From: Nitrospirota bacterium
GTDB taxonomy: Bacteria; Nitrospirota; Thermodesulfovibrionia; Thermodesulfovibrionales; SM23-35
Direction of reading: 5' to 3'
DNA length: 64,000 nucleotides
NCBI GenBank assembly: GCA_963796125.1
Contig: CAWCKM010000052.1
Span: 238-64,237, forward strand
Shown here piece by piece: positions 1 through 33,752 of this stretch (positions are counted from its first letter, which is position 1; every line of letters begins with the position of its first letter). Both the position numbers and the translations under genes were made by a program. The notes below the pieces were generated by a model that did no database searches, was not told where the DNA came from, and saw only the letters and a list, made by a program, of their open reading frames with translations.

Positions 1-2706
1 GCCGCAGCTCCTGCCGATACTCCTCGCCGGAGTAGGCGTCGCCCCGCTCGCCGGCCTCTTCGAAGAGCGCGGCGTCCTCACGTGCAGCCGTTCGATCTCC
101 TCGCGGGTCTCCGTGAAGACGAGTCGGCGGCCTCCGACCCGGGAAGCACCTCGTCCTCCACGCCGATCGACCGGGCGGCCTGCGCGATCTTGCGCTGTAG
201 GCGCTCTTCAAGGCGGAGCAGCGCGTCGAGTTGCCGGTCGGGAAGAAGCAGCGCAGGAAGACGCGGTCGTGGGTGGCTGCCGATCCGGTCGATGCGACCG
301 TGCCGCTGCACGAGCCGCATCGGGTTCCAGGGCAGGTCGTAGTTGATGATGTGCCGGGCCTGCTGGAGGTTGACGCCCTCGGCGAGCACGTCGGTCGCGA
401 CCAGGATGTCGTAGCGGTCCTCGTCGCGCCCGACGGGGCGTCGGTGGTTCGGGGGCGAAGCCCCAGAGCACGTCCGTCTTGTCTGCCCTCGACGCCGGTG
501 ACCGGGCGCAGCCGGCCGCGGTAGCGGACAAGGTCCGGGTCGTCGCTCAGCATGCCGTGCTCCAGGTACGTCGCGGATCCAGTCGACCGTGTCGGCGTAG
601 TAGGTGAAGATGATCACCTTTCGCGTTGTCGCCGACGTGTCTCCGAGCCGATCCCCTCCTCGCGGGCCTCGGCGGCGATCTCGCGAGCTCCTCGGCCAGC
701 GCGGCGCAGCTTCGGGTCGTCGTTGTGCCGGTCGACCTCGCCGGCCTCGGCTGCGAAGCGCGAAGCAGGTCCCGGTCGGCCTCCACGTCGGCCCGCAGCG
801 CCTCCACGTCGTAGGCGCGATGCGCCGTCGAGCGTTTCACCGGTGCAGCGTCGATCCGAGCGCGTCGAGCTCGTCGGAGTCGGTGCGCATCCACTCGGCC
901 AGGGCCTGTCCCGGTGACCACCAGCCCTCGTGTCGAGAAGATCCAGGAAGGCGTCGTGGCTGTCGGCCATCCGCCGGCAGGTGAGGGCGAAGGCGTACGG
1001 AGACGACTCGAACCGCTTCAGGAGCCCCGAGCGCAGCAGGCCGGCGAGCTGCAGATCTCGTAGGCCTCTGACTCTCGGCCAGTGCGCAGGTACTGCGAGG
1101 GCGCGTAGCGGGCGAGGCTCAGGACCGGCGCTCGGCGAGCCTCGGTGCCTCGTGGTCGCACTCGTCCTCGCCGCAGTCCAGGGCGTGGGCGAACCGGTCG
1201 AAGAAGCCCGGCAGCAGCGCCTCGAGGTCGTAGGCGACCCGCGTGCACCACGTGGCTTCGGGAAACGTGATCGCGACCTCGTCGCCGTCGACCATGACGT
1301 GGTCGTTGCGGGTAGTACTGCTTCACGAAGTGGCGGGTGCGGCGCACGGCGACCGCATCGAGGATGTCGAAGAGCTTGTCCGGTGAGAGGTCGTCGGGGT
1401 CGAGGGCCATCGCCTCGGCGAAGTGGTCCCGCAGCGAGCGGATGCCCGGCGTCGGCGAAGGCGGCGTCGTTGCGGATGAAGTAGCCGAGCAGGTAGTAGA
1501 GGTCCCAGAGGCTGTTGTTGACCGGGGTCGCGGTGAGCAGGACGAGGTCCTTGGGCGGCGTGCCCTCGAGCAGCCGGCGCAGGACCCCGGCCCGCTGGGT
1601 GTCCGGGTTGCGGTAGGCCTGCGCCTCGTCGATGACCACCATGGCGTACTCGTCCATGTCGAAGCGCGAGGTGGTCGCCGTCCCCGTCCGGGTTGAGCTG
1701 CCGGTCGTCGGAGAGCTCCTCGTAGGAGACGCACTCGACCCCGAGCTGGTGGCGCAGTCGAGGAAGTGCGCGCCACGGGCCGTCGCGCAGCGCGGCGGGG
1801 CTGACGAGCAGCACGCGCTGGCGGCGCTCCTGCACCGCCTCGCGGATCAGCTCCCCGGCGATGAAGGTCTTGCCCAGGCCGACGCCGTCGGCGACCAGCA
1901 CGCCGTGGTGCTCGGTCGAGGATGCGCTGCGCCCGCCAGACGCCGTCCTGCTGGAAGGTGGTCAGGTGGATGCCGATCGCCGCCTCCGGCTTCCTCCTCC
2001 ACCTCGGCGCCGTACCGCTCGTAGAGCATGCGCAGGTAGATCAGGTAGGGGTTGTGCGGCTCGTAGCGGGCCTCGTAGATGGCCGGCGAGGTCGAAGGGC
2101 GCCGACGCGCTCCCACACGTCGTCGAACCACGCCGCGCACCTGCCGACGACCTGCGGCTGGTACTGCCCCAGGTTCAGCTCGTTGTTGATGGCGAGCCCG
2201 GCGTAGGTGAGGTTCGACGAGCCCGACGATGGCGCCCTCGTCGTTGGTGGTCACGAGGAAGCGTCTTGCCGTGGAGGAAGCCGTCCTCGTAGCGGCGCAC
2301 CTCGACCGCCGTCCGAGCGCGAGCCACGCGATCAGGCGTGCGGCCAGCGCCGTCCGCCTCGAGCGTGAAGCCGAGCAGGTCACGGTCCCGCTCCAGCGTC
2401 CGAGTGTGACCCTCCAGCGCGCCGACGCAGCCGAGCCGCGCTCGATCTCGCTGCGGGTCCGCTCGTCGGGTCGAGGTGGCGGAGCTCGCGCTCGGGCCCA
2501 TCCGGCTCGCGCCCAGCACCAGGCGCACGCTGCGCCACCGTCTCGAGCTCGTCGGCGAGCAGGCCGAAGCCGCCGGGTTGAAGTAGGCGGTGGAGATGGC
2601 CAGCTCGAACGGCTTGGCCCGGCTCGCAAGCAGGAAGCTCGAGATGGCCGTTGATGGCGTCGGCGACGGTCTCGCCGGCACGGTTGACGAGGAACTCGGG
2701 CTTCAT
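1..2706 (-). pseudogene. PLD(HKD)-nuclease domain fused to an SNF2-family helicase. The 3' end runs off the window and the reading frame is broken at least 5 times.
   Basis: Minus-strand pieces: 2175-2681 (AISTAYFNP, FLHGKT HKD-like); 1323-1901 (ADGVGLGKT, motif I); 614-1657 (VVIDEAQAYRN motif II, LLTATPVNN motif III); 78-617 (ATDVLAEGVNLQ, QRHGRIDRIGS motif VI). Positions 1-77 continue in another frame (DAALFEEAGERGDAYSGEEYRQELR). ATG at 2706-2704 is preceded by GAGG. Confidence 0.75.
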
Positions 2707-5700
2707 GCCAGCGACCTCAGCGGTGGAAGTGCTCAGCACGGCATCCAGGCGGGGCTCGTAGTCCCAGCCCACGTGGAAGGTCTCGAAGATCACCCGCACG
2801 TCGGCCTCGTCAAGGCCGTAGAGCAGGGCCACGGCGGCGTCGAGCTCGGCGATCAGGTCGTCCTTCTCCGTCCGGGTCGTCGACGCTCGCCACTGGCACG
2901 CCGACCGCCGTCGCCCAGTCGGCGTAGCGGTCGTCGACGGCCGCCAGACGGCCAGCAACTGTCTCGACCAGCTCGACGGCCAGGGGCTGTCAGCTGCGAC
3001 GGGACTGGGATTGGGAAGCCGTTCAGCAATGTGAAGGTTCAGGTGTAGTCTCGACGAAGCGCCGGGCGTACCAGTCGAGGGGGATCGAGCACAAGCACGC
3101 CGAGGAGAACGCTTCGTGCGCGGTGCAGTCCGCCCAGCGAACAGAAGATAGGGCGCCTTGTGGTTGACAACCACGTCGGGGGGCACGAGAGCGCGATCGA
3201 CGGTGCGACTGTCGGTCGAGCCCGGGCTGACATCGCGGTAAGGCAGATCCGCGGGGCGCGGCACGGCAGCGTGCTGGGGTCTGCAAGCGACCTCGCGGGC
3301 AACCCGCAGAAGGCCGAACTGGCTGTGCTGCTCCTGCTGCAAGCCGCTTCTCCTGCAGGTACCGTGGCAATGTGCGACCGGCTCAGCCCAGGCGTAGTAC
3401 TCGCCGGTGTCCGGATCCCACAGGTCGAAGGACGCCCCCTTGTAGACAGGCCACAGGCCGTCCGTGGACCTCGGGTCGAGAATCATGTGGTCCTTGTCGT
3501 TGGTGGCGTTCAGGTCGCTTGGACGGGCCGCGCGCCCACGGGTCGCTCGTGGAGTCGAACCGGGATGCCGCCGCAGCTTCAGGAACACCTCGGCCGCCTC
3601 CGGCGTCGGGAGTCAGCGGGAAGGCGGCGCCCGTGGACCAGGTCACGAACTCCGGCCACCGGGAACTCGACGGGCTGTCTCGAGCGCCCGGCAGGTACGG
3701 ATGGCGCGTCACCGGAACGGGCCACGATGTGCGACCAGGCCGCACATGCTCGGCGCCCTCTGCGGATCGACGACCAGCCCGATCGTGTACTGGGGCTGGA
3801 CGTCGTCGAAGACCCACTGCCGGTTGTTCAGCAGCAGGGTCACGTCTTCGAAGGCCCCTCGTCCAGCACTGTCTCGCGCCACGGTAGCGCTCCCCGCTGC
3901 CGAGAGGGCCGACCGGGGAAGCACGACACCGATCCGCCCCGCCCTCGCCGACCAGGTGCCAGAAGCGCCAGCAGAACGCCTTGTAGAGATCGGGATCACC
4001 TGTGCCCAGGCCGGGTATAGGGCCCCGTGAGAACCGGCCTCATGCGTCTCAGCCGCTTGCCACCTCCCGTTCGTACTCGGCGACGAGGTCGGGCGTGCCG
4101 GCTCTGAGGCGTGATCGAGCGCGTTCATGCTCTGCCGACGGAAGCGCTCTTCAGCCCGGGAAGCGCAGGGCCCAGAAGCCAGCTCCTCGACATGCAGCTT
4201 CTCCCACGGCGGGTTCCCGACGATGCAGTCGAAGCCCGGCCCGGCGCGCAGGAACACCTCGGGAACGCGACCGGGAAGTGGAGGGCCGTTGAGGCTGCCA
4301 GCCAGCTCCTCGATGCGGCGGCATGGCCGGTCCGGGTCGATCTCGGGCTACCTCGGCCGAGATGTCGATCAGCGGCTCGACCTCGCCGAGCGGGCGGCGA
4401 CCCGAGGTCGAAGAGTAGCGCGGCAGGCTTCGACCGCGTCTCGGGCCGCCTCGGCTGCGCCTCTCGGGCCTCCGTCAATCTCGGCGGCGGTGGCGTCGGA
4501 GATGCGGCCCAGCCGCTCAGGCGGCTCCGGGCCTGCCCAGTTGAGCGGCTCCACGATCTGGTCGCGGGCCAGCGAGAGTCGTCTCCGGCGGGCTTGCTTG
4601 CCCTCCAGCGACTGCCGCCGGCCTCGTCGACGAGTGCCGATGCCCGGTGAGGCTGTTGCCCCAGACCAGGGTGTGGTCGAGGAAGCGCAGAGCGGCAGAG
4701 CCGGGACGAAGGTGTGGATCCAGAGGGCGAGGCGGGCCAGCTCGACGGCGATCGGGTTCAGGTCGACGCCGTAGATGCAGCGGCGGGCGATCTGTCGGCG
4801 CAGCAGGGCGGCCTGCTCGATCTCCGATCCCGGCGGCCAGCTCCCCGAGGCTGTCGAGCGGCGGTCTTGCGCAGCCGCTGCAGCTCGTCGGCGACCCCCG
4901 GGAGCGGGTGCTGGGCCAGGAAGGCGGAGAGGCGCGCCTCGATGTGGTCGACGGCGGCCACCAGGAAGTGGCCGGAGCCCATGGCGATGTCGGCGACCCG
5001 GAAGTCGAAGAAGCGCCTCGGCGGCGGCGTGCCTCGTCCCCGGCGTCGAGCAGCGCCGGCAGCCGGGCGAGGTGGTCGTCGAGCGCCGGCTCCAGGGCGT
5101 GGTCGAGCAGGTGCTCGACGGCGAACGGCTTGGTGAAGTAGGAGCCGGTGGCCTTGCGGGCGCCCGGAGCGGTTGTGCAGGTAGACCGCGCCTGCGGCGC
5201 ACGACGACGGCGTCGCCCTTCTCGGCCGGGATGTAGGTCGCCGTCCTTGTCCAGCGGTGAGGTCGGTCGTGGCGACCGAGCAGGCTCGGACTCGAGCAGA
5301 CCCTCGTAGATGGTGCCGAACTCGCGCACCGAGAGGCTGCGGAAGTCGACCGGCCCGTGCACCTCGCTCCGGCCTGAGATCGACGAGGAGCCGGCGAGCA
5401 GCGCCGGCCCGAACTCGGCGTTGGTCAGCGTCCAGCGCCGGCGATGCGGCCGCCGACCGGGCTGACCTCCGGGTCGGCGCTGAACGAGGCCGCCGTCGTA
5501 GGCGGGCACGCCCCAGTCGCGGTTGCCGTGGTCGACGGCCCGGACAGAGCTGCTGCACCTGATCCCAGTCCGAGGTGGCCGCCGGGTCCGAGGTGGAGCT
5601 GCCCCTCGTTGGCCAGGTCGGCCAGCTCCTGGGCCAGGGTCTTCAGGGCGTGGCGCCGGTAAGTCCCGTTCGGACCGGTAGGGCAGGAGTCCCTTGTCCT

Positions 5701-6691
5701 CGGCGTAGGCGATGAAGAGGAGCCGGAAGAGGATGACCAGGGCCGTCTCGTACAGGTGCGGCGCAGGTCGCTCGCCGGACCGGCGCTCCCGGCCGCGGTG
5801 CGGCGGCGACCGCCGTGGCCAGGGCGGGCACGACCTCGTTGTAGACGCGCTCCCGGAGCCGCTCGGCGAGGCCCGGTCGCCGCAGTCTCGAGACGCTCGA
5901 GGATCTGCTCGAAGCGTGCCCCCGGGAGCAGCGCCTCGGCGCCGAAGAGCAGCGGCAGATAGCCGGCCGGTCGTCGGGAAGCAAGGTCAGGTTGGCCTCG
6001 ACGAAGGTCTCGGCTCGGCCCTTCCGCCCCACCCCCGGTGCCGGGCCGCGTACACCCTGATCTGCGCACCCCGGGTCAGCACCACGTAGGGAAGCTGCTG
6101 CACGGTCGGCCAGCTCCAGGGCATGGGAGATCGGACTGGCCCCGCCGAAGCGGCCCGACAGGCCGTCGGGGGTCTCGTGCTCCTCCAGGAACACCGCCAC
6201 CGCCGCCCGGGTTCCCGCGCCCCGCACCCGCAGCACCGAGCGAGGACACGCCTAGGGTGTGATGTCGAAGCCGAGCGCCCGTACCAGCGCCTTCCCCTCA
6301 GGTGAAGGACCTCCGGCCCCGGGCAGCCGACCGCGCCCACCCGGCCAGAGCGGGCACCCCTCCCGCAGCTAGTGGGTGGAAGAACATGCCCGAGTTGCTG
6401 GACGCCGGGGAGCTCCGGCGCTCCACCTCGACCAGGGCGTCGTGATGAACGCTGATGGCGCTGATGACGGATCAGGCTCGCCGAGGGCCGCCCGGGCCGT
6501 CCGCTCCCTCTGGCCCCGGTCGGCATCCACCACCAGCGGGGTCCTCACCGAGCGGGCCACACAACGCCACCCGTCGCCAGGGGCGGTCCCGTACAGCACC
6601 ACCAGCAGCAGCGGGGCAGGCCGGTTCCCCGACGGCGCTTCCACAGGTGGCGCACCTCACTCACATTCGGGCGGGAGCCGGTGGCGGCCAC
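2707..6691 (-). pseudogene. Very large N6-adenine DNA methyltransferase (type IIG / PglX / DrmMI-like architecture), multiply frameshifted.
   Basis: Minus-strand pieces carry FDFRVADIAMGSGHFLVAAVDH (SAM motif I, about 4959-4992), CIYGVDLNPIAVELARLALWIH (about 4712-4775), CIVGNPPWEKL (catalytic NPPW, about 4198-4230), and an N-terminal ILFRLLFIAYAEDKGLLPY-type helix (about 5690-5750). The C-terminal region lies in 2380-3588. Candidate GTG start at 6691 with GAGG 5 nt upstream. Confidence 0.7.
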
Positions 6692-6775
6692 CGCCACCTC
6701 GACGGGCAGGAAGTTTCAAATGGGGTCCCCTCACATAAGAGTCCAGACCTATCAAGGATGAGGCCACAACAGTCT

Positions 6776-7597
6776 CTAAGAGATCGGGTTGCGTAAAGTT
6801 GTCGGCAATGACCAGCATTGGGCTATTTTGTATGCATCCTTCAAGAGACCGCCAAGGCCAAGAGGGTCATCCGTGATCCAGTTTTTTCCTGTGCAAATCC
6901 TTGCAATATCGGCAATCTCCGCACTGAGGTCCGCCCCTGCTGATTGCCACGAATATTTGCGCGCAGTTACATGAAGCTCGCTGTATGTGATCAAACCATC
7001 GAGAGGATCATGCTGGCCCATGGATGTCACAAGGGGATATGAGAGGTCAATGCTCATCTTCCAGTAAATGCGCTTTTGCCCTCCGCCTTTTGGACTGTAG
7101 GTAAACCTGGCATGGGCCGTCTTTGCAAGCTCTATCGCCCACTTGTTGTAGGTTGGATCCCTTGTGACCTGGCTCATACGATTGAGGGCATGCATCCATT
7201 GAGTCAGGTAATGATAATACTGCCCGTCCCGGTCCCATTCCAACTGCTCATCAAAGGGGTCCTCCGGCCTCCGTTCATTCATCTCTTTGCCGATCCTCAG
7301 ACCGCCTATTGTAGGATGTCTCGCGCCCTCCTGCTCATCGAGGCCGCTGATCCAGCCGGAACGTAAATCGTCAGCACGGTGCCGGCCAAGTACGGCATGC
7401 ACCTGATCAACGAGGAGAGAGGCCAGATGTTTGTAATGCTCGTCGCTCGTTTGACTATAAAGCTCAAGGAAGTTGCATACGGCAAAGGCGTCAGTCCATA
7501 AGTATCTCTGGGGAGAGGGGCTGGCCGGTGAGAGTCTGGTCAACACGGCATATTCCATCATAATTTCACTGACCAAAGGGGTTCTCAGCACGATCAT
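6776..7597 (-). CDS. Conserved hypothetical protein. The C-terminus may be clipped by the compositional junction.
   Basis: Uninterrupted 273-aa ORF with ordinary globular composition (YLWTDAFAVCNFLELY, DRDGQYYHYLTQWMHAL). I recognise no family. Confidence 0.5.
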   Translation of the reverse strand: MIVLRTPLVSEIMMEYAVLTRLSPASPSPQRYLWTDAFAVCNFLELYSQTSDEHYKHLASLLVDQVHAVLGRHRADDLRSGWISGLDEQEGARHPTIGGLRIGKEMNERRPEDPFDEQLEWDRDGQYYHYLTQWMHALNRMSQVTRDPTYNKWAIELAKTAHARFTYSPKGGGQKRIYWKMSIDLSYPLVTSMGQHDPLDGLITYSELHVTARKYSWQSAGADLSAEIADIARICTGKNWITDDPLGLGGLLKDAYKIAQCWSLPTTLRNPIS

Positions 7598-7715
7598 TCA
7601 ATCCCTAACATTTATTCCCACCCTCATGCGCCTTCATACCGATTACCACGAAACCCCGATACCTGTCAACCATGGAAAAAGAGGTGGGAATATTCTTCGC
7701 TTCAAAAGTGAGCCG

Positions 7716-9374
7716 TCACCTATTGCTCTCCCGCGGCTTTTCCCGCACCACTTCGCGGGCGGGTTTATCCTCACGCAGCCGCAAAAAAACGGGCTGCCTC
7801 ATGACGCCCTCATCGGTCCAGCCGTGAAAAATAACTTCGCAGACCAGTTCCGGCTTTACCCATGTGACCGGGGTATTGGTCTTCGGCTTTACTTTAAAGG
7901 GGCATTCTTTCTGGATCAGGGGATCCAATTTTTCGCGGATTTCCTTTAGATTTTTCGACCCGAATCCGCCTCCCGAATGGCCGATGTAAATCAACTCGTC
8001 CCCTTCGAATGCGCCTAAGACAAGGCTGCCGAAATATTTTCTGCCTCCTCTCGGTTCTGTGAATCCAGCGATCACGCCCTCCTGCGTGAGCCGCGTCTTC
8101 ACCTTCAGCCACTGCCGGCTCCTTCTGCCCATCCGGTACGCGCTCTGAGAATGTTTTGCCATGATCCCCTCGAGTCCCTTTTCTTTGACGACATTGAAAA
8201 ACAAGACGCCCTCTTTCGATACGTGATCGCTGAATTTTATTTTCGGGGAAGATGGGAGAATCTTTTTCAGGAGTTCTTTTCTCCTGAGCAGGGACAGGTT
8301 CGTCAGATCATGTCCCTGGAAGTACAGGAGATCAAAGACATAGTAGAGCAAATGACCGCTTCCGGATTTTTGGTAATTCTGCATCATCTGGAAATCAGGA
8401 TGTCCCTGATCATCCACTACAACAATTTCGCCGTCCAGGACAGCCTCAAATCTGAATTTCCCCAACGACTCCACAATAGGGGAAAACTTTTTGTTTAACG
8501 AGATATGGTTTCGGGAATAAAGCGAAACGCCTTCGTCCCGGATTTCGGCAATTGCACGGTATCCGTCCCATTTCACCTCAAAGATCCAATCCGGATGATC
8601 AAACGGTTCTTTGACCAGGGTGGCGAGCATCGGTTTTATGTTGAGCGGCATCGGTTTAACCGGCGCGTCCTTCAGGTCTTTGCTTTCCATCGCTTCCCGA
8701 AGACGGATTTGGTTTATTTTTTGTCTGGAAGATTTCTCCGGTTTGGCTTCGAAAACTTCCTCAAGAGTCTTATTGGAAACTACGGAACGACTCTCCTTGA
8801 GAATGTCCTCTGTGATTGCATATCGATCTTTTTTCTTCAAGAGAAGCCACGACTTCTCGTCCATTCGCGTTTTTACCAGCGCGAATTCACCCTGAAGCTT
8901 TTCTCCCTCGAGGATAAATTTCATATTCCCTTTTCTTAATCCGTCCAGAAGGAGTTTCTCGCTTTCTTTTCTATCTCTTGTGGAAGGGTGATGATAAAAG
9001 CCCCTGTCCCAGATGATAACGCTTCCTGCGCCGTAATTGCCCTCCGGAATAACTCCCTCAAAATCTTTGTAATCAAGCGGATGGTCTTCAACCATAATGG
9101 CCAGCCTTTTCAAGGAAGGATTCAGCGAGGGCCCCTTCGGCACGGCCCAGCTCTTAAGTACACCTTTTAGCTCCAGCCTGAGATCATAATGGAGCGCCCG
9201 GGCCGCGTGCTTATGAATAACAAAAATGAGATGTTCCTTCTGCACGTAGGGGGACAGTCCCGATTCTACGACTTCGCTTCGCTCCGTCCGTAAATCCGGG
9301 ACAGTCCCCTCGCCTGGTTTCGGTTCGGGCGTTTTTCCGAATTTCCGTTTAGATTTGTATTCTCTTAGTCCCAT
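7716..9374 (-). CDS. ligD: ATP-dependent DNA ligase LigD with phosphoesterase and ligase domains.
   Basis: N-terminal IHKHAARALHYDLRLE...WAVPKGPS matches the LigD 3'-phosphoesterase signature. EVKWDGYRAIA carries the KxDG adenylation motif. Last gene of the Ku operon. Confidence 0.9.
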   Translation of the reverse strand: MGLREYKSKRKFGKTPEPKPGEGTVPDLRTERSEVVESGLSPYVQKEHLIFVIHKHAARALHYDLRLELKGVLKSWAVPKGPSLNPSLKRLAIMVEDHPLDYKDFEGVIPEGNYGAGSVIIWDRGFYHHPSTRDRKESEKLLLDGLRKGNMKFILEGEKLQGEFALVKTRMDEKSWLLLKKKDRYAITEDILKESRSVVSNKTLEEVFEAKPEKSSRQKINQIRLREAMESKDLKDAPVKPMPLNIKPMLATLVKEPFDHPDWIFEVKWDGYRAIAEIRDEGVSLYSRNHISLNKKFSPIVESLGKFRFEAVLDGEIVVVDDQGHPDFQMMQNYQKSGSGHLLYYVFDLLYFQGHDLTNLSLLRRKELLKKILPSSPKIKFSDHVSKEGVLFFNVVKEKGLEGIMAKHSQSAYRMGRRSRQWLKVKTRLTQEGVIAGFTEPRGGRKYFGSLVLGAFEGDELIYIGHSGGGFGSKNLKEIREKLDPLIQKECPFKVKPKTNTPVTWVKPELVCEVIFHGWTDEGVMRQPVFLRLREDKPAREVVREKPRESNR

Positions 9375-9567
9375 GGATGCTCAGAATAGTATGACCATCA
9401 TAACCTTATATTCCGTCTTATAGGCGGAATAAGACATCATGACCTGCACCCTCATGCTTCCAAGAGGAGCGGGGTATATAGTTCCCTCCTCTTAGGATAG
9501 GAGGCAGTGAAGAGGGATTCCTGATCAGGACTGCAGTGACGACTTAGAGTATACACTAAATATTCCG

Positions 9568-10473
9568 TCATAAGTGAGGGAGCTTCTGTTTTTTCACGAT
9601 TACCTCTTGAAAAAGGTCGCCTTTTTTTTCGGCCCTGCTTACGGCTTCCGAATGCATGACCTGCAGCTTTTCCGGGTCACCAAGCCCGGCTAAATTCTCT
9701 AGTTCCTTCCATACAAGGGGAAACGAAACGATCGGTTTTTCACGGGCCCGCAAGGAATAAACGCAGATCATCGTCTTTGAAGAGTCGTTTTGAGACCAGT
9801 TGATAAAAACCTTTGCTTTCCGGTATTCCTTCGCCATTTTTGCGGTCACCAGATCCGGATAATTTTTCTGCATGATTCCTGCCACGGCTTTTGAAAATTT
9901 CTTGGTATCCTCGAACGTCGTCTCTTTGCGGTTTAAGGGGACATATACATGGAGTCCTTTTTTGCCCGAGGTTTTTACATAGCTTGTAAGATGCAACTGG
10001 GAGAGCAGGTCCCGAAGTATCAGCGCCACACGGGCACAATTTAGAATGTTTGCCTGTTCCCCGGGGTCCAGATCAAAGACCATGAAATCGGGCGTTTCAG
10101 GGGAACTGACCCTGGCCAGAGGCAGATGGAGTTCAAGAGACGCAAGGTTCTCCACCCACATCAGCGTTTCCAGATCGTTGACCAGGCAGACCGTCATCCT
10201 CTCTCCATCATCCCGGCGGACCTCCGCCGTTTTCGCCCAGGCCGGACGGTGAGAAGGACAACGCTTCTCGAAAAAGAAATCCTTTTCCACTCCTTCGGGA
10301 TAGCGCTTTAAGGTCAATGCACGGTCTTTCAAATGGGGCAGGATGAACTTTGCAATCCGGCGGTAGTATTCCAGGATGTGGGCCTTCGTGAAACCATAGG
10401 AAGGATAGAGATCCTTTTCAAGGTTGGATAAAGAGAGTCTTCTCCCGGCGATCTCGACAACTTTTCGGCTCAC
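9568..10473 (-). CDS. Stand-alone LigD polymerase/primase domain protein (NHEJ PolDom).
   Basis: LSNLEKDLYPSYGFTKAHILEYYRRIAKFILPHLKDRALTLKRYPEGV...FFEKR is typical of LigD PolDom. The ATGA overlap with the upstream ku stop is 4 nt. Confidence 0.9.
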   Translation of the reverse strand: MSRKVVEIAGRRLSLSNLEKDLYPSYGFTKAHILEYYRRIAKFILPHLKDRALTLKRYPEGVEKDFFFEKRCPSHRPAWAKTAEVRRDDGERMTVCLVNDLETLMWVENLASLELHLPLARVSSPETPDFMVFDLDPGEQANILNCARVALILRDLLSQLHLTSYVKTSGKKGLHVYVPLNRKETTFEDTKKFSKAVAGIMQKNYPDLVTAKMAKEYRKAKVFINWSQNDSSKTMICVYSLRAREKPIVSFPLVWKELENLAGLGDPEKLQVMHSEAVSRAEKKGDLFQEVIVKKQKLPHL

Positions 10474-11297
10474 CGGTTCTTTTTCACTTTGCGCATGCTT
10501 TCCTGCAGAGCGGCGACCAGATCGGCCGGACCTTCCCCTTCTTCCTCGACTTCAGGCGCCTCCACCGGAGCTTTTTCTTTCTCCTTCTTCTTCAGGAGAT
10601 TCATGATCTTCTTCCGGCGCTCGTCCGCATATTTTTCAGGTTTAAAGTCTGCGATCATTTTTTTGATGAATTTTTTCATACGGCTTTTCTCTTCGGGTTC
10701 GATATTTTCTTTTTTCGGTGCGAAATCTTCATCGGGGAGTATTTCTTCGCTGTAATGAAGTGTGATCAGGGCCAGCGCCCCCTCCACGCTTTTGACGGCC
10801 ACGAGATACTCACGGTCCCGCAGCACGAATTTTGCGAGCCCGGCCTTGTTCGTCTGACGCAGCACCTCGACCAGCAGCCGATAAGCTTTTTCGCCTCCTT
10901 TCGCCGGGACGAGATAATATGGGTGATCGTAATAGATCAAGTCCACTTCCTTCATATCGATGAACTCGATGATCTCGATCGTGCGGCTCCGTTCTGGGGA
11001 CAGGGATTCCAATTCCTTGTCCGTCACCACTATATATTTGTCGGGTCCGATTTCATATCCCCTGATAATCTCATTCGACGGGACGATCGTTTCTTCTTCC
11101 GGACAAGACATCCCTCTCGCGAGGGGAGAATAATCCTTGCTGTGGAGCATGCGAAAGGAGACATGGCCGGTACGGACTGCGCTAACCAACTGTACCGGTA
11201 TTGCCACCAGGCTGAAACTGATCGTACCGCTCCATATTCCCTGAAAAGCAGTTTCATCCTTCCGGGGTGAAGACGGATCGGAGCGCGGAGTTTTCAT
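10470..11297 (-). CDS. ku: Ku protein, paralog 2, with a Lys/Glu-rich C-terminal tail.
   Basis: WSGTISFSLVAIPVQLVSA Ku core start. The C-terminal tail contains DLVAALQESM. The start ATG immediately follows the TAA of paralog 1. Confidence 0.9.
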   Translation of the reverse strand: MKTPRSDPSSPRKDETAFQGIWSGTISFSLVAIPVQLVSAVRTGHVSFRMLHSKDYSPLARGMSCPEEETIVPSNEIIRGYEIGPDKYIVVTDKELESLSPERSRTIEIIEFIDMKEVDLIYYDHPYYLVPAKGGEKAYRLLVEVLRQTNKAGLAKFVLRDREYLVAVKSVEGALALITLHYSEEILPDEDFAPKKENIEPEEKSRMKKFIKKMIADFKPEKYADERRKKIMNLLKKKEKEKAPVEAPEVEEEGEGPADLVAALQESMRKVKKNR

Positions 11298-12068
11298 TTA
11301 GGCGACCTTCTTCAGACTCGCTTCAAGGGCCTGAAGCAGCTTATCTGATGCTGTGGGTTTCAAGAGCCTGGGGCGCAGGACCGCAATTTTTTCTCCACGG
11401 GCTTTTTTCTCGATCAAATTTCGGAGCTTTTTCTCATGTTCGTTTACGAATTTCTGGGGCTGAAAAGGGCCGGTTAACTGGTTTATCAAATAACTTCCGA
11501 TTTTCAGCTCTTTTTCAGACAAAGGAGTTTTCTGCAGTTCAAGAGATTTTACCGAAATCACTTCGTCGGCATACCGCAGAGTATTAAGGCGGAGAATCTT
11601 CCCGTTTATCTGCAAGGCCCCGAGATAGGACCGTTTTCTCATGGTCCAGGTGCAGATGCCTTCCACATCCATTTCCTTCAAAGCCCCGACAAGCGCGTTA
11701 TATCCTTTTAGGTTGGTATCCGGCTCCAGATAGTAGACGCGGTCACGGAAAACGGGATCGATCTGTTCGGTCTTGACGAATTCGTGGACTTCTATCGTCC
11801 GGCTGCTTTCAGGAGCGGTTTGGTCGAGTTCCGAAGGATCGACGATGATATATTTGCCATCCTCCAATTCAAACCCTTTCGCCTGCTCTTCCATCGGCAC
11901 AGGTTTTTTCTCATATGCACAAACCATCTGTTGGCGCAATTTCACATGATCACGCTTGTGAAGGAGGTGAAACTGAATCCGCTCTTCCTTAATTGCGGTA
12001 TGCAGCTTCACGGGCACATTCGTATCCCCAAAATGGATATATCCTTTCCAGATCGTTCCTCCTGCCAT
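11298..12068 (-). CDS. ku: Ku protein, paralog 1.
   Basis: WKGYIHFGDTNVPVKLHTA Ku core start and a C-terminal KLLQALEASL motif. GAGGAGG RBS upstream. Confidence 0.9.
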   Translation of the reverse strand: MAGGTIWKGYIHFGDTNVPVKLHTAIKEERIQFHLLHKRDHVKLRQQMVCAYEKKPVPMEEQAKGFELEDGKYIIVDPSELDQTAPESSRTIEVHEFVKTEQIDPVFRDRVYYLEPDTNLKGYNALVGALKEMDVEGICTWTMRKRSYLGALQINGKILRLNTLRYADEVISVKSLELQKTPLSEKELKIGSYLINQLTGPFQPQKFVNEHEKKLRNLIEKKARGEKIAVLRPRLLKPTASDKLLQALEASLKKVA

Positions 12069-14627: not shown

Positions 14628-15803
14628 TTAAATCTCTTTATGAATCTCTTTGACGGGCTTCCTTAAGAAAGCCGGCATATCTATCGGATCCTCGTAAGAG
14701 ATGATATCTGATGGTGCTGCATTGATGGCGAAGTCACATCTGAGATCCTTTGCCAGAATCCTGTCAGACCCTTTCAGGCTGAAAGGTTCTTTGGAAGGAG
14801 CCCATTTTTTAATCTGAGGCAGTTCTACTTTTTCTTTTTCCTCATGAAAGCCTGTTGCGATTACGGTGATCTTAACCTCATCGTCTATGTCCGGGTCTAT
14901 TACTGCACCGAATATGAGGTTGACCTCTTCGTGTGCAGAATCATAGATATAAGAAGCTGCCTGTTGCACATCATCAAGGGAAAGATGAAGGCCACCAGTA
15001 ATATTGATGAGGATATTCTTTGCACCTTCGATTGTTGATTCTTCAAGGAGAGGATTCGATATAGCCTTTTTCGCTGCCTCAAGAGCTCCGCCTTCTCCTC
15101 TTCCAAATCCACAACCCATAACACCGCGACCTTTCTCTACAATAATCGTCCTCACATCAGCAAAGTCAACATTAATTAATCCTGGGATGACAATAATGTC
15201 AGAAATACCCTGTACCGCCAGTTTCAATACATCATCTGCAATAGCGAAGGACTTCAGAAGCGGTGTTCCCTTTTCAACAACATGGACAATCTTGTCATTC
15301 GGTATAACAATAAAGGTGTCCACATATTTTTTCAGTTCCTTAATACCCTCTTCGGCATTCATGCATCTTACTCTGCCTTCATAGAAAAATGGTTTGGTAA
15401 CAATAGCAACTGTCATAATGCCCATCTCTTTTGCAATTCCGGCAATCACCGGACCTGCACCTGTTCCTGTGCCTCCACCCATGCCGGCTGTTATAAAAAC
15501 CATATCTGAGCTTGCAATGGATTCGATAATTGCATCTCTGTTCTCGATTGCTGCTTCTCTTCCAATCTGGGGGTTTGAACCAGCTCCAAGTCCCCTTGTC
15601 AATTCAGTCCCTATTTGTACCTTGACAGGCGCAAGAGAGGAATAGAGGGCTTGCAGGTCAGTGTTAACGGCAATGAACTCAATTCCCTGGAGGTTTGATG
15701 CAATCATGGTGTTGATTGCGTTACCTCCCGCCCCTCCAACGCCAACTACCTTGATGAGTGCATTCTGACCGCCCCTTACTTCTTCGATCTCAAACATGTA
15801 CAC
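14628..15803 (-). CDS. ftsZ: Cell division GTPase FtsZ.
   Basis: VVGVGGAGGNAINTM and GGGTGTGAGPVIA tubulin signature. Sits at the end of the dcw cluster. Confidence 0.97.
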   Translation of the reverse strand: MYMFEIEEVRGGQNALIKVVGVGGAGGNAINTMIASNLQGIEFIAVNTDLQALYSSLAPVKVQIGTELTRGLGAGSNPQIGREAAIENRDAIIESIASSDMVFITAGMGGGTGTGAGPVIAGIAKEMGIMTVAIVTKPFFYEGRVRCMNAEEGIKELKKYVDTFIVIPNDKIVHVVEKGTPLLKSFAIADDVLKLAVQGISDIIVIPGLINVDFADVRTIIVEKGRGVMGCGFGRGEGGALEAAKKAISNPLLEESTIEGAKNILINITGGLHLSLDDVQQAASYIYDSAHEEVNLIFGAVIDPDIDDEVKITVIATGFHEEKEKVELPQIKKWAPSKEPFSLKGSDRILAKDLRCDFAINAAPSDIISYEDPIDMPAFLRKPVKEIHKEI

Positions 15804-15854
15804 CTCCTTTAAAATTGTGTATTACAAATTAAATTTTTTGCCTTTTTCATGTTT

Positions 15855-17093
15855 TCATGTGCTGATATGTTCTGAGTCTCCATTGCCTTTGAATATTCCT
15901 GCAAACCAGTCTTTCATCTTTCCAAAAATACCTGCGGGATTATTCTCATAGGAGACTTTGGCTGATTCGTTATCAAGGCCGTACAGTGCAAGGCCTACTC
16001 CTGTTGCATATATTGGATTGTTGATATTTCCTCTGCATCCTTTTATGCCGTCGCAAGACCCTATTCTGACCGGCAGTCCCAATGATGCCTCAGCCAGACT
16101 GTCGAAGCCGTCAAGGAGTGAACCTCCGCCACTAAGGACAACTCCTGATAAGGCGATGCTGTAATCAGAGCATAATGAAAGTTCATCCTTTATTAAATCT
16201 ATAAGCTCCTCAGCCCTCGGCTGTAAGATCTCTGCCAGGTGCGTACGGGGTGTTTTCTTTTGTTGTCCTGCCCGGGGAATATCTATCATTTCTTTATCTT
16301 TTATCATGTGTGTCGTTGCACAGCCAAAATCCTTTTTGAGCCTTTCAGCCTCTGCAAAGGGTATCCTGAAGCCAATGGCAATATCGTTTGTAAAATGGTG
16401 TCCTCCAACCGGAATGTTTGCTATGTGCTGCAAAAAGCCATGTTTGTAAAGGGCGATTTCCGTTGTGCCGCCAATGTCTACAAGAGCAACACCGAGTTCC
16501 TTTTCCTCATCGGTTATTGTTGATGCTGCAGAAGCAAGGGCCTCAAAGACTACCTCTATAACCTCAAGCCCGGCCATTTCACAACATTTGAGCAGGTTCT
16601 GTAGTGGAGAGACAGCCCCTGTGATAATATGAACATGTGCTTCCAGCCTGTCACCGGCCATACCAACAGGGTCTTTGATTCCATTCTGTCCGTCGAGGGT
16701 GTAACCCGTTGGAATGAAATGGAGTATTTCTCTATCAAGAGGCATATAGACTGACCTTGCGGACTCTAAAACGCGCTCTACATCCGCAGGGATTACATCC
16801 CTGCTGTTGATTCCAGTTGCGCCATGGCTTCTGATGCCTTTAATATGATTTCCTGTAATGCCAACAAATACTTCTCTGATCTGTGCTCCCGTGGAAGACT
16901 CCGCTTCCTGAACTGCTTTTTTGATTGAATCCACCGTTGGTTCTATATGTATAATCACACCTTTTTTCAGTCCTGTTGAAGGTGCGGTTCCGATACCACG
17001 GATTTCCATTTCACTTCCCGCAACCTCTCCAACAACAGCACAGACCTTTGTTGTGCCTACATCGAGGCCAATGATGATGTTTCCTCTCTTCAA
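15855..17093 (-). CDS. ftsA: Cell division protein FtsA.
   Basis: IIGLDVGTTKVCAVVGE actin-like fold and position between ftsQ and ftsZ. Confidence 0.95.
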   Translation of the reverse strand: MKRGNIIIGLDVGTTKVCAVVGEVAGSEMEIRGIGTAPSTGLKKGVIIHIEPTVDSIKKAVQEAESSTGAQIREVFVGITGNHIKGIRSHGATGINSRDVIPADVERVLESARSVYMPLDREILHFIPTGYTLDGQNGIKDPVGMAGDRLEAHVHIITGAVSPLQNLLKCCEMAGLEVIEVVFEALASAASTITDEEKELGVALVDIGGTTEIALYKHGFLQHIANIPVGGHHFTNDIAIGFRIPFAEAERLKKDFGCATTHMIKDKEMIDIPRAGQQKKTPRTHLAEILQPRAEELIDLIKDELSLCSDYSIALSGVVLSGGGSLLDGFDSLAEASLGLPVRIGSCDGIKGCRGNINNPIYATGVGLALYGLDNESAKVSYENNPAGIFGKMKDWFAGIFKGNGDSEHIST

Positions 17094-17842
17094 CGAATTA
17101 CCTCTTTTATGGGTTTTACAACCACCCTGTTTGCAAATCGCACATCTATATAATCAACGGTTATCTGTCTTCTCTGTATGTCCTCTTCGAGTTCAAGGAG
17201 CCGTTGAAGTTTTTCTTTATAATCTCCCACTCCTACCTTTACAACCATTCCATCTATGACTGATGTAAGTTCCTGGGGCTTTGAGAGGACTATCTCAATT
17301 TGGTCTCTTTCTGAAGACAACCCCATGTCATTCATTGTCTTTGCAAGGGTAAGGGCTTCTGATAAACCTTCTCTCTCCCGGGAGGGATCACCTGTGATTA
17401 TAGGAAGGAAGGGAATGATATTGCCTTTAAGTTCCTCAAGAAGTTCGCCCTTTTCATTAATGATAAACAGATGTCCATTGACATCAAGAAGTGCAAAAGG
17501 GACAACTTCACTTACGGTAACTGACAGGGTATCAGGAAAATCCTTTCTTACACTTACAGACCTGATCCATGGAGATTCGAGCAATTTCTTGCTTACTTTT
17601 TTCCCGGAAAGGGTAATCAGATTTGCATTTCTGCGAACTCCTGAAAGGGCCCTGAGTTCATCAGATGTTAGATGCTTGTTGCCAATAAAGATTACCCTTC
17701 GGACCGGAAAAGCCGATTTTATTTTGATAAAAGCAGCATATACACCTATGACAAGGGCGGAGACAAGCAACAGAGAGACCGTAATGCTTATCAGTAAGCT
17801 GCTCTTATTGTTCTTCTTTTTCTTTACTTTCATCAAGAACAC
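17090..17842 (-). CDS. ftsQ: Cell division protein FtsQ.
   Basis: Single N-terminal TM followed by a POTRA-like region ([17 protein letters not shown]). Position between ddl and ftsA. Confidence 0.8.
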
Positions 17843-18746
17843 TCCTGAACATCTCTTCTATCAATGCTGGAAAATCAAGACCGGCAAGTCTTGCTATCTT
17901 AGGCAAAAGACTTGTCTCAGTCATACCCGGAATGGTATTAACCTCGAGGACATAGGGGTTCCCCCTTCCATCAATTCTCAAGTCAACCCGTGTTGCACCT
18001 CTGCAGCCAAGGGCAATATGGGCTGAAAGGGCAGTTTCCTTAGCTCTTTCATAGGTTTCGCCGTTTATTTCTGGTGGAAGAATGTATTCTGTGAGGCCAG
18101 CATGGTACTTTGCCTCGTAGCTGTAAAATTCAAGAGACGGCCTTACCTCGACTCCTCCAAGTACTCTGTCATTGAGTATCCCTATATGTACTTCTTTCCC
18201 TTCTATGTATTTTTCTATGATTACCCTGTTGCCAAGAGAGAAGGCTTTCTCAACAGCAGGCCTTATTTCCCTTTCGTCTTTTATGATGCTTACCCCAATG
18301 CTTGAACCCTCTGTTGCAGGTTTGACTACCCAGGGCATTAAAAAATCAACGTGTGATGAATCTATGCTCTTTGCTTTCTGCCCTCTGCTCAGCACTACAA
18401 AGGGTGGCACAGGGATGTTGTGGCAGAGGAATATTTTTTTCGATGCTTCTTTGTCCATTGCAAGGGCGGAAGCAAGAACACCAGAGCCGGTATAGGGTAT
18501 TCCAAGGACTTCAAGCATGCCTTGTACAGCACCGTTTTCTCCGTCTCCTCCATGAAGTGCGATGAAAGCTATCTTTATCTTCTCTCTCCTGAGGGCTTCA
18601 CAAATTTCAGAATCAGTATCGATCGCAACAGCGTCATAACCTAAGCCTTTCAGGGCAGTATAGACTGCGTTTCCGCTCCTCAGGGATACCTCTCTTTCTG
18701 CTGATCTTCCGCCCATCAAAACTCCTATCTTCATTTCGGTCAACAT
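17805..18746 (-). CDS. ddl: D-alanine--D-alanine ligase.
   Basis: [36 protein letters not shown] and EVNTIPGMT motifs. Confidence 0.95.
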
Positions 18747-18863
18747 AGATCAAAAATTAAAAAGAAATCATAAGTTTAAAAGTTTTATTATTCTTTCCAG
18801 AACAATCCATCGTAATAATTTTTAGATTTTGCCCTGTAATTTTTACTTTTTCTCTTTTGCATT

Positions 18864-22325: not shown

Positions 22326-22356
22326 GAATCTTTAAATAACAAATGCAACATTGAAA

Positions 22357-26182: not shown

Positions 26183-26183
26183 A

Positions 26184-28638: not shown

Positions 28639-28757
28639 CGTAGGATAGTCTATTTTATTTTTCTTCTATTACACTCTCAAATTTTGAGTTAATTCTTTTA
28701 GCCGTCTCTTGACGACTCTTCTCCCGTAAAACTTTTTAATCCATTGCAGAAAAATCT

Positions 28758-32002: not shown

Positions 32003-32020
32003 AGCCTTTCACCTCTCCCA

Positions 32021-32371
32021 TCAAGGAGCAACCAACTGTTTTTTCTCTAATGATGCCTTATGAGGGAGAGACCCCTTCTGCTTCTTCACATGAATTACCT
32101 TGACCCTGTCAGGGAAGATGAAGCCGCTGTTTTCCATGGCAGTTGTCTCAAGCCGCTCCAGGGATTGAAGGCCTGCCTTTTCAGCAAGCAGTAACCGTCT
32201 CTCTTTAATATGATCAGCTTTCATCTTTTCAAGGACGCCGATGTTATACTCTAAATTAAGAACACGTGACTTGAGCCAAACAAGACTGAACAGACCGGCG
32301 AATAACAAAGCAATACATGAGTACCTGAAAAGAAAAGATGTCATACTCTTCCTTCTGCCTAATCGTATCAT
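32021..32371 (-). CDS. ftsL: FtsL-like cell division protein.
   Basis: 116 aa with one TM (CIALLFAGLFSLVWL) followed by a coiled-coil-like segment. Lies between rsmH and ftsI. Confidence 0.6.
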   Translation of the reverse strand: MIRLGRRKSMTSFLFRYSCIALLFAGLFSLVWLKSRVLNLEYNIGVLEKMKADHIKERRLLLAEKAGLQSLERLETTAMENSGFIFPDRVKVIHVKKQKGSLPHKASLEKKQLVAP

Positions 32372-33244: not shown

Positions 33245-33265
33245 AGTTAGTCCCCGCTTGTGACT

Positions 33266-33718: not shown

Positions 33719-33726
33719 ATTTGCCC

Positions 33727-33752
33727 TCCACTTTCTACCACTTTTCTCCACA
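33727..33752 (-). promoter_or_regulatory. Putative MraZ operator: three GTGG repeats in 10-bp phase.
   Basis: Minus strand reads GTGGAGAAAA GTGGTAGAAA GTGGAGGGCA (plus-strand CCAC at 33728-31, 33738-41, 33748-51). The arrangement matches MraZ-binding direct repeats described in other bacteria. Confidence 0.6.

What the first reader, a model, noticed from the sequence alone, without database searches (positions are those of the whole stretch)
6690..6790. Abrupt switch from about 70% GC to 40-50% GC within 100 bp: chimeric join or foreign DNA
To the left of about 6700 the sequence is extremely GC-rich, with ORFs open in all six frames and actinobacterial-style codon use. To the right are ordinary low-GC genes. 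The switch falls between the candidate GTG start of the methyltransferase (6691) and the stop of ORF 6776-7597. I see no tRNA, integrase, inverted repeat or direct repeat at the boundary. The simplest reading is a contig mis-join, contig concatenation or binning contaminant. The alternative is very recent acquisition of a defence island from a high-GC donor, which would be remarkable.
Basis: seen in the sequence. Interest (0 to 1): 0.65.

Follow-up and report, generated by a model that had tools for sequence, protein, structure and literature searches.

The report
Chimeric tail on a metagenome contig
The sharp GC switch is real, but it is almost certainly an assembly artefact: about 6.7 kb of barely corrected sequence from a high-GC organism is stuck onto the end of a Thermodesulfovibrionales contig, cutting a gene on each side, so it is not a gene transfer.

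Summary
GC drops from 0.74 to about 0.50 within 100 bp, and I place the breakpoint at 6705|6706.

- **Right side:** a Thermodesulfovibrionales (Nitrospirota) chromosome with an NHEJ cassette and the dcw cell-division cluster.
- **Left side:** a type IIG-like methyltransferase plus an HKD-SNF2 helicase, a defence-type pair found intact on actinobacterial plasmids.
- **Both genes at the join are cut.** A conserved ~390-aa gene, 98% identical in DNA to an independent contig, stops dead at codon 298. The methyltransferase lacks its first 38 codons. There is no microhomology, repeat, tRNA or integrase.
- **Sequence quality changes at the same base.** The left side needs 67-89 frameshift corrections in 6.7 kb (10-13 per kb). 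The 5.4 kb to the right needs one.
- **The left-side genes look healthy once corrected.** GC3 is 0.88-0.94, amino-acid identity to homologues is 60-77%, and there are 0-3 stop codons. This is noise on a live gene, not decay.
- **Position:** both sides sit on one deposited 64,946-bp contig, so the tail lies within 946 bp of a contig end.

Most likely a chimeric long read or a very-low-coverage mis-join. Low interest, except as database contamination.

The parts
1..2706 (-). First ~887 codons of an HKD(PLD)-SNF2 helicase gene of ~1100 aa from a high-GC organism. Its 3' end runs off the left edge of the window. The reading frame is broken 27-34 times.
   Evidence: Frameshift-aware alignment to P0121-P0125 starts at residue 1 at window 2706. 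It gives 75-77% aa identity, 0 stops and 32-34 frameshifts at penalty 12, or 23-27 at penalty 20. Corrected GC1/2/3 are 0.74/0.43/0.94. Homologue domains are PLDc_2, SNF2-rel_dom and Helicase_C; PADLOC calls it HKD+Snf2/DrmD-like.
2720..6705 (-). Type IIG-like (Eco57I-family) DNA methyltransferase gene of ~1350 aa, lacking its first ~38 codons. The reading frame is broken 40-55 times.
   Evidence: Alignment to the L085 MTase (1353 aa) covers residues 39-1348 over window 6703->2720, with 58-60% identity, 3 stops and 40-55 frameshifts. The Euzebya and Mycobacterium homologues also align from residue 39-40. The Euzebya homologue hits PADLOC REase_MTase_IIG PDLC03620 at 2e-230 and Pfam Eco57I. Corrected GC1/2/3 are 0.75/0.51/0.88.
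6705..6706 (.). The breakpoint: a direct abutment of two truncated genes, with no spacer, adapter, microhomology or repeat.
   Evidence: DNA identity to L083 (98.3%) and L084 (89%) ends at window 6706. The native continuation 'tgatcaccg' differs from the window's 'ccgtcgagg'. MTase homology starts at 6703. No repeats at the boundary and no sequence shared between the tail and the rest.
6706..7597 (-). First ~298 codons of a conserved ~390-aa hypothetical gene of the Nitrospirota/Thermodesulfobacteriota type. It is truncated at its 3' end by the breakpoint and carries a 1-nt deletion near 6816-6818 that creates the false stop at 6776.
   Evidence: 8000 homologues, typically 380-400 aa. P0001 is 95% identical over residues 1-260 by BLASTP and 98% (292/297) over residues 1-298 after one frame correction. 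Four further homologues end at residue 295-299 at the breakpoint. DNA alignment to L083 gives 920/936 with one gap.
7716..12068 (-). Context: an intact NHEJ cassette, with LigD phosphoesterase+ligase at 7716-9374, LigD PrimPol at 9568-10473, and two Ku genes at 10470-11297 and 11298-12068.
   Evidence: Pfam hits. Same gene order in most of the 80 related MAG loci. 0 frameshifts with the same aligner at 67-92% identity.
14628..33781 (-). Context: the division/cell-wall (dcw) cluster, mraZ to ftsZ, which marks the right side as chromosomal. Most genes are full length.
   Evidence: FtsZ and FtsA by Pfam. Ddl, MurB, MurC, MurG, FtsW, MraY, MurF, MurE, FtsI and MraZ give near full-length NCBIfam matches. 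0 indels in 3,359 bp against the short-read-derived contig L089.

Best explanation
The boundary at 6705|6706 is an assembly artefact in a deposited metagenome-assembled contig of 64,946 bp. The body of the contig (6706 onward) is a reasonably well-corrected consensus of a Thermodesulfovibrionales chromosome. The last ~6.7-7.6 kb at one end is foreign DNA from a ~70% GC organism, probably an actinobacterium or its plasmid, carrying a type IIG-like methyltransferase and an HKD-SNF2 helicase. This tail was represented by so few reads, plausibly one, that consensus polishing could not remove single-molecule indel errors.

The most likely mechanism is a chimeric long read, meaning two unrelated fragments joined during library preparation, which the assembler used to extend the contig end. 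A mis-join to a very-low-coverage contig would look the same.

Shown: the exact breakpoint, truncation of both genes, the step in frameshift density, the preserved high GC3, one deposited contig, and terminal position. Inferred: that the frameshifts are read errors, that coverage of the tail is about 1x, and the type of chimera.
For: (1) Both genes are cut at one point. The ~390-aa host gene ends at codon ~298 and the methyltransferase starts at codon 39. No spacer or microhomology is present.
(2) Quality steps at the same base. The left side has 27-34 plus 40-55 frameshifts in 6.7 kb, or 10-13 per kb. The same aligner finds 1 in the adjacent 5.4 kb at comparable divergence and 0, 6, 0, 0 in intact-homologue controls. 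At DNA level, gap openings are 29-33 per kb for the window against homologues, versus 18-20 per kb among intact homologues.
(3) The underlying genes are healthy. After correction they show 75-77% and 58-60% aa identity to the closest intact homologues, 0 and 3 stops in about 2,170 codons, and GC3 of 0.94 and 0.88. There has been no drift towards the 43% GC host.
(4) The assembly is error-prone elsewhere too. About 17-20 isolated single-base indels in coding sequence (26 gap openings in all) break genes over ~12 kb relative to L088, which fits a long-read consensus whose quality follows coverage.
(5) Fragment ORFs of the tail (P0361, P0362) and host genes (P0363, P0366, P0367, P0241) are all recorded on a single 64,946-bp NCBI/ENA contig. 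The tail therefore lies within 946 bp of a contig end.
(6) Independent relatives carry the interrupted gene intact with different downstream genes (L083 at 98% nt, L084 at 89%). The junction 33-mer is absent from JGI metagenome contigs.
(7) No tRNA, integrase, repeats or shared sequence.
(8) Chimeric reads are a documented product of ligation-based nanopore libraries: at least 1.7% of reads in PMC5600009, and see also PMC13141652.
Against: No reads or coverage data were available, so low coverage of the tail is inferred from error density only. The sequencing platform is unknown. The indels are not concentrated in homopolymers, which is not the classic nanopore signature. A single genuine molecule from a rare recombinant cell would look identical in the assembly. 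The Ku/LigD end-joining genes sit 1 kb from the junction, and an end-joining event would also give a junction without microhomology.
Confidence: 0.88

Rival explanations
1. Mis-join or scaffolding of two separately assembled contigs. A short, very-low-coverage contig from a rare high-GC organism was joined end-to-end to the Thermodesulfovibrionales contig, by a graph error, a scaffolder or a gap-closing step, and deposited without Ns. This is still an artefact, but it does not involve a single chimeric molecule.
For: Contig ends typically cut genes, as seen on both sides. The high error density fits a contig at 1-3x coverage. Both parts are on one deposited record.
Against: No sequence is shared between the two parts that could have misled an assembly graph. 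There are no Ns. A composition-aware binner or scaffolder would rarely link 71% and 43% GC sequence. The sequence alone cannot separate this from the chimeric-read version.
Confidence: 0.07
2. A genuine but rare recombinant. In a small subpopulation of the Thermodesulfovibrionales cells, a fragment of foreign high-GC DNA was joined into the chromosome by illegitimate (Ku/LigD-type) end joining inside the 390-aa gene. The assembler followed the one or few reads from that variant.
For: The junction has no microhomology and cuts both genes, as end joining of random breaks would. An intact Ku-Ku-PrimPol-LigD cassette lies 1 kb away. Unaltered GC3 would fit a very recent event.
Against: The prior is very low compared with chimeric reads at the per-cent level (PMC5600009). 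The tail is at the contig end, so no second junction back into host DNA is seen. The close relatives L083 and L084 have the gene intact. The junction is absent from JGI metagenome contigs. The tail would be non-functional: one gene is 5'-truncated and has no promoter, and the other is not fully seen.
Confidence: 0.04
3. An old horizontal transfer that has since decayed into pseudogenes, so that the frameshifts are real mutations.
For: Many frameshifts are present, and other genes in the window are also broken.
Against: About 67-89 indels come with only 0-3 stop codons in about 2,170 corrected codons. GC3 is 0.88-0.94, at or above that of the intact homologues compared (0.74-0.85). Neutral decay in a 43% GC host would bring many nonsense substitutions and a fall in GC3. 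The frameshift rate changes within a few bases of the junction. Relatives at 98% DNA identity lack the insertion.
Confidence: 0.01

Closest known systems
Chimeric contigs and chimeric long reads in metagenome assemblies (library-preparation chimeras; PMC5600009, PMC13141652)
   Same: Two unrelated genomes abut directly, with no biological junction features. The position is terminal on the contig, and consensus quality drops on the foreign side.
   Different: No reads, signal data or adapter remnant could be examined here, so the class of chimera (ligation, in-silico or graph mis-join) is not established. The indels are not homopolymer-centred.
Gene-fragmenting indel errors in long-read assemblies (e.g. 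PMC12007338)
   Same: Single-base indels split otherwise conserved genes into several ORFs. This is seen at about 1-2 per kb in 40-54 kb of the window and at 10-13 per kb in the tail.
   Different: The density in the tail is far above what a polished consensus shows, which is why near-single-read coverage is inferred.
Genomic islands and defence islands acquired by horizontal transfer
   Same: Deviant GC content, and cargo of a defence type: a type IIG-like methyltransferase with an HKD-SNF2 helicase. In the intact relative L085 the pair sits among other defence-type genes.
   Different: No integrase, tRNA, att repeats or target duplication. Cargo and host genes are both truncated at the junction. 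The cargo is unreadable without frame correction, and only one boundary exists because the segment ends the contig.
Type IIG RM-like methyltransferase + HKD/SNF2 helicase gene pairs on actinobacterial plasmids (Euzebya pacifica pEDY32-46I, Mycobacterium gallinarum pJCM6399)
   Same: Same two genes, in the same order and on the same strand, with the helicase start at 2706 lying next to the end of the methyltransferase homology at 2720. Nucleotide identity is 69-72%, and aa identity is 50-77% after correction.
   Different: The window copy lacks the first 38 codons of the methyltransferase, and its helicase 3' end runs off the window's left edge. It carries 67-89 frame breaks, and its closest relatives are unnamed metagenome contigs.

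Membership tests
Assembly chimera (foreign tail on a contig end) | Abrupt switch of composition and of taxonomic affiliation at one point | tested here: met
   GC 0.74 to 0.51 within 100 bp. Tetranucleotide r is -0.42 against 0.78-0.98. The left side's closest named DNA matches are on actinobacterial plasmids. The right side's relatives are Thermodesulfovibrionales/Nitrospirota MAGs.
Assembly chimera (foreign tail on a contig end) | The breakpoint cuts coding sequence on both sides, with no junction biology | tested here: met
   Host gene cut at codon ~298 of ~390 and methyltransferase cut at codon 39. No repeats, tRNA or microhomology.
Assembly chimera (foreign tail on a contig end) | Discontinuity of read support or consensus quality at the breakpoint | tested here: met
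   Tested by proxy only. Frameshifts run at 10-13 per kb on the left against 1 in 5.4 kb on the right, with the same aligner, and controls give 0-6. Read depth itself could not be measured.
Assembly chimera (foreign tail on a contig end) | Foreign part lies at a contig terminus | tested here: met
   Proteins from both sides are recorded on one contig of 64,946 bp. The window is 64,000 bp, so the tail is within 946 bp of an end.
Assembly chimera (foreign tail on a contig end) | No, or only one, original read spans the junction | not testable with these tools
The source record could not be retrieved.
Horizontally acquired genomic/defence island | Integration machinery or signature (integrase, tRNA target, flanking direct repeats) | tested here: not met
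   None found in 1-14000. Only one boundary is visible.
Horizontally acquired genomic/defence island | Intact, expressible cargo genes | tested here: not met
   The methyltransferase lacks its start and promoter, and both genes need 27-55 frame corrections each.
Horizontally acquired genomic/defence island | The same junction is present in independent assemblies or strains | tested here: not met
   The junction 33-mer is absent from JGI metagenome contigs. L083 (98% nt) and L084 (89%) carry the uninterrupted gene. ENA and Logan raw data were not searchable at DNA level.
Decayed pseudogenes from an old transfer | Nonsense substitutions and drift of GC3 towards the host accompany the indels | tested here: not met
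   0-3 stops in about 2,170 corrected codons. GC3 is 0.88-0.94 against the host's 0.40-0.60.
Type IIG RM-like MTase + HKD-SNF2 helicase pair (content of the tail) | Homology to both proteins along their length, in the conserved adjacent order | tested here: met
   The family assignment rests on the intact Euzebya homologues: PADLOC REase_MTase_IIG at 2e-230 and HKD+Snf2 at 1e-49, plus Pfam Eco57I, PLDc_2, SNF2 and Helicase_C.

The most novel reading that the evidence does not exclude
The junction is real. A fragment of a high-GC actinobacterial defence locus was captured into a Thermodesulfovibrionales chromosome by Ku/LigD-type end joining, next to the cell's own NHEJ cassette, in a rare subpopulation that was sampled by one or a few long reads.
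Probability: 0.04. Interest if true: 0.7.

Novelty: not a real feature. Interest (0 to 1): 0.1.

Why it matters
As biology it does not matter, because there is no evidence of an inter-phylum transfer. It matters as quality control.

The chimeric 64,946-bp contig is deposited in NCBI/ENA. Meaningless frameshift-fragment 'proteins' from its tail (for example the 179-aa and 402-aa ORFs) are in public protein collections under a Thermodesulfovibrionales-type genome. GC-based or taxonomy-based screens for horizontal transfer or defence islands would flag this locus as a striking false positive.

The case also gives a read-free diagnostic that can be reused. A step in frameshift density measured against homologues, together with preserved GC3 after correction, separates a chimeric low-coverage tail from a genuine island or a pseudogene.

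Tried and rejected
- **Exact-protein look-ups to retrieve the source contig.** ORF273, LigD, P0241 and MraY were not on record in the position index. MurG returned only a related Logan contig. Contig identity was instead established through cluster records.
- **Junction 33-mer search in JGI metagenome contigs.** No match. This is uninformative about ENA or Logan data.
- **Homopolymer-compression signature in the tail.** Run-length spectra match those of intact homologues, so no platform signature could be drawn. The indels on the low-GC side are also mostly outside homopolymers.
- **Repeat-mediated mis-join.** No sequence is shared between the tail and the rest, and only chance-level short repeats lie at the boundary.
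- **Rearrangement within the window.** The missing 3' end of the 390-aa gene and its native neighbours from L083/L084 are nowhere else in the window.
- **tRNA, Rfam and promoter/terminator scans at the boundary.** Nothing relevant.
- **Raw six-frame ORFs as genes on the left.** Rejected: Pfam gives only sub-threshold fragments in different frames and GC1/2/3 are flat.
- **Literature search for run SRR10376092.** No paper found.
- **Synteny check in 80 related NHEJ loci.** None has the 390-aa gene or ftsZ nearby, so these loci could not supply the native left neighbour. L083 and L084 did.
Full report
**1. The observation**

The GC switch is real and sharp.
- In 100-bp windows, GC is 0.74 at 6600-6699, 0.51 at 6700-6799 and 0.46 at 6750-6849.
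- At 1-kb scale, 1-6000 is 0.68-0.73. The rest is about 0.50 at 7-12 kb, about 0.43 at 12-44 kb, about 0.35 at 44-54 kb and about 0.41 to the end.
- Tetranucleotide frequencies of 1-6705 correlate at r = -0.42 with the body of the window. Every other 6.7-kb block gives +0.78 to +0.98.
- ORFs are open in all six frames on the left.
- There is no tRNA or tmRNA, no Rfam family, and no meaningful direct or inverted repeat within 1 kb of the boundary.

**2. What lies on the right**

Reading leftwards on the minus strand from 33.8 kb, the window carries a standard division/cell-wall cluster: MraZ, RsmH, FtsI, MurE, MurF, MraY, a D-Ala-D-Ala carboxypeptidase, MurD, FtsW, MurG, MurC, MurB, Ddl, FtsQ, FtsA and FtsZ. 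Most give near full-length NCBIfam or Pfam matches.

Next come a histidine kinase in three pieces (12421-14057) and a four-gene end-joining cassette: Ku, Ku, LigD PrimPol, and LigD phosphoesterase+ligase (7716-12068). The last ORF before the boundary is 6776-7597.

LigD's nearest relatives, at 83-85% aa, are Thermodesulfovibrionales/Nitrospirota MAGs. The cassette is conserved in gene order in most of the 80 related loci. The right side is therefore an ordinary Nitrospirota chromosome.

**3. The exact breakpoint**

ORF 6776-7597 (273 aa) belongs to a very large family of hypothetical proteins of about 390 aa (8000 hits).
- The best hit, P0001 (392 aa), is 95% identical over residues 1-260 and then diverges.
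- At DNA level, P0001's contig L083 (an independent ENA short-read assembly) matches window 7640 to 6706 at 98.3% (920/936) with a single gap. That gap is one base missing in the window near 6816-6818, and it creates the false stop at 6776.
- After correcting that one frame, the gene reads on to the breakpoint. Five different homologues all stop aligning at their residue 295-299.
- L084 (NCBI GCA_040961595.1, 89% nt) stops at the same base.
- Beyond it L083 continues 'tgatcaccgtttggc', whereas the window, on the same strand, continues 'ccgtcgaggtggcgg'. There is no microhomology.

The host gene is cut after nucleotide 893 of 1179. Its missing end and its native downstream genes are nowhere else in the window.

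**4. What lies on the left**

Raw ORFs give only sub-threshold Pfam fragments, SNF2 and Eco57I, in different frames. Their GC1/2/3 are flat at about 0.7, which is not what real 70%-GC genes look like.

BLASTN against plasmids finds 68-70% identity over most of 1-6200 to a conserved two-gene pair on plasmids of Euzebya pacifica, Mycobacterium gallinarum, Paenarthrobacter and Rhodococcus. The pair is a ~1320-1360-aa protein followed by a ~1130-aa 'helicase-related protein'.
- The first protein is an Eco57I-family methyltransferase that PADLOC assigns full length to its type IIG class (PDLC03620, 2e-230).
- The second is a PLD/HKD + SNF2 helicase, DrmD-like.

Plain tblastn shows the homology hopping between all three minus-strand frames.

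**5. Frameshift density**

I wrote a local protein-DNA aligner that allows 1- or 2-nt frame jumps.

| Region and reference | Frame jumps | aa identity | Stops |
|---|---|---|---|
| Helicase, window 2706 to 2, vs five metagenomic helicases found with the frame-corrected translation | 32-34 (23-27 with a harsher penalty) | 75-77% (72-75% with the harsher penalty) | 0 |
| Methyltransferase, vs intact pair in L085 (ENA ERZ27315036; MTase 1353 aa + helicase 1104 aa) | 40-55 | 58-60% | 3 |
| Controls: intact Mycobacterium proteins on Euzebya DNA and the reverse, lower identity | 0, 6, 0, 0 | about 43-52% | 0 |
| 5.4 kb immediately right of the junction, at 67-92% identity | 1 (the one at ~6816) | 67-98% | 0 |

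- The methyltransferase alignment covers residues 39-1348, starting at window 6703. The Euzebya and Mycobacterium proteins also align from residue 39-40.
- At DNA level, the window opens 29-33 gaps per kb against homologues, compared with 18-20 per kb among intact homologues. The excess of about 12 per kb matches the aligner's count.
- The frame-breaking indel density is therefore 10-13 per kb on the left and about 0.2 per kb on the adjacent right. The change happens within a few bases of 6705|6706.

**6. Errors, not decay**

Along the corrected path, GC1/2/3 are 0.74/0.43/0.94 for the helicase and 0.75/0.51/0.88 for the methyltransferase. This is the signature of a selected gene in a ~70% GC genome, at or above the intact homologues compared (GC3 0.74-0.85).

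About 67-89 real indels accumulated under neutrality in a 43% GC host would bring many nonsense substitutions and a fall in GC3. Neither is seen. The frameshifts are therefore best read as sequencing noise laid over an intact gene pair.

**7. The assembly is error-prone in general**

- Against L088 (JGI 3300032516, 91-96% nt, all genes intact), window 40.3-54.3 kb shows 26 gap openings. About 17-20 of them are isolated single-base indels inside coding sequence, mostly 1-nt insertions outside homopolymers.
- These break the ketosynthase / ACP / dehydratase / amine-oxidase cluster into about 17 ORF pieces.
- MurD, RsmH, a GGDEF gene and the histidine kinase at 12.4-14.1 kb are also split.
- By contrast, 18986-22344 has 0 indels against a Logan contig of run SRR10376092 (99.1% nt).

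This patchwork fits a long-read consensus whose quality follows local coverage. Within that frame, the tail's density points to near single-read support. I could not identify the platform, and the homopolymer spectra of the tail equal those of intact homologues.

**8. One deposited contig, tail at its end**

Exact-sequence look-ups show that two frameshift-fragment ORFs of the tail are in the NCBI/ENA-derived protein collection: 5987-6526 (P0361) and 2380-3588 (P0362).

So the join is in the deposited record and was not made when the window was cut. Because the window is 64,000 bp, the tail lies within 946 bp of a contig end.

**9. Interpretation**

The following points together indicate a chimeric tail:
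- Two truncated genes are fused head to tail, with no spacer, repeat or microhomology.
- Consensus quality steps about 50-fold at the same base.
- Codon composition on the left shows no drift towards the host.
- The position is terminal.
- Close relatives carry the gene intact.
- No integration machinery is present.

The most likely cause is a chimeric long read used to extend the contig end. Ligation-based nanopore libraries produce such reads at the per-cent level (PMC5600009, PMC13141652). A mis-join to a very-low-coverage contig is the main variant of the same artefact.

A real, rare end-joining capture of foreign DNA cannot be excluded from sequence alone, and the Ku/LigD cassette 1 kb away makes it a tempting story. 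Its prior is far lower, though, and nothing observed requires it. Old transfer followed by pseudogenisation is contradicted by paragraph 6.

**10. Verdict**

This is not a real biological feature and its interest is low. The practical value is to flag a contaminated public contig with its spurious proteins, and to offer a read-free test for such tails: frameshift-density step plus preserved GC3.

Noticed in passing
window 7716-12068 (-); loci L003-L082: The four-gene NHEJ cassette (Ku, Ku, LigD PrimPol, LigD phosphoesterase+ligase) is about 50% GC against about 43% for the host. It recurs in the same order in most of the 80 MAG loci fetched (62-92% aa identity), which are labelled Nitrospirota, Thermodesulfobacteriota, Geobacter-type and other phyla, each time with different neighbours. 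It looks like a horizontally shuttled module with two tandem Ku paralogues.
   Followed up: partly
window 44700-53500 (-); L088: This low-GC (30-38%) cluster encodes SDR, ketosynthase, ACP, a FabA/ApeI-ApeP-like dehydratase, two more ketosynthases and an amine oxidase. All are intact in the relative L088. In the window about 17-20 single-base indels, mostly 1-nt insertions outside homopolymers, break it into about 17 ORF pieces.
   Followed up: partly
window 12421-14057, 24115-25137, 32368-32982, 39637-40848, 42271-44694: Other genes on the low-GC side look split or fused by frameshifts. A PAS-HisKA_2-HATPase kinase is in three ORFs. MurD and RsmH are missing parts. A GGDEF domain is cut at profile position 50 of 168. 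An 807-aa ORF starts with the HATPase end of the upstream kinase. All fit residual assembly indels.
   Followed up: partly
window 2380-3588 and 5987-6526 (-): Meaningless frameshift-fragment ORFs from the chimeric tail are present as protein entries (P0362, P0361) in collections derived from NCBI/ENA. They are attributed to the same 64,946-bp contig as the genuine Thermodesulfovibrionales genes.
   Followed up: yes
L085 1-23315 (ENA ERZ27315036 k141_403052): The closest intact copy of the methyltransferase-helicase pair sits in a 64% GC region. Its neighbours include HTH regulators, a Phage_rep_O protein, CTD7, an LmuB_C (Lamassu-type) protein, a NERD/UvrD helicase and a DEAD/MZB helicase. This looks like a defence island on an integrative element.
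   Followed up: no
window 59400-64000: The right end of the window has only small ORFs of 45-170 aa. Several look like toxin-antitoxin or ribbon-helix-helix pairs. They were not searched against any library.
   Followed up: no
window 14584-14624: A G/C-rich near-palindromic tandem motif (GGGGGAGGGGGCCCCC, about 2.5 copies) lies just downstream of ftsZ. It may be a terminator-like structure.
   Followed up: no
L083 position 1 = window 7640: The independent short-read contig L083, which carries the intact 390-aa gene, ends between that gene and LigD. No related NHEJ locus has the 390-aa gene nearby. The adjacency of the NHEJ cassette to this gene may therefore be strain-specific.
   Followed up: no
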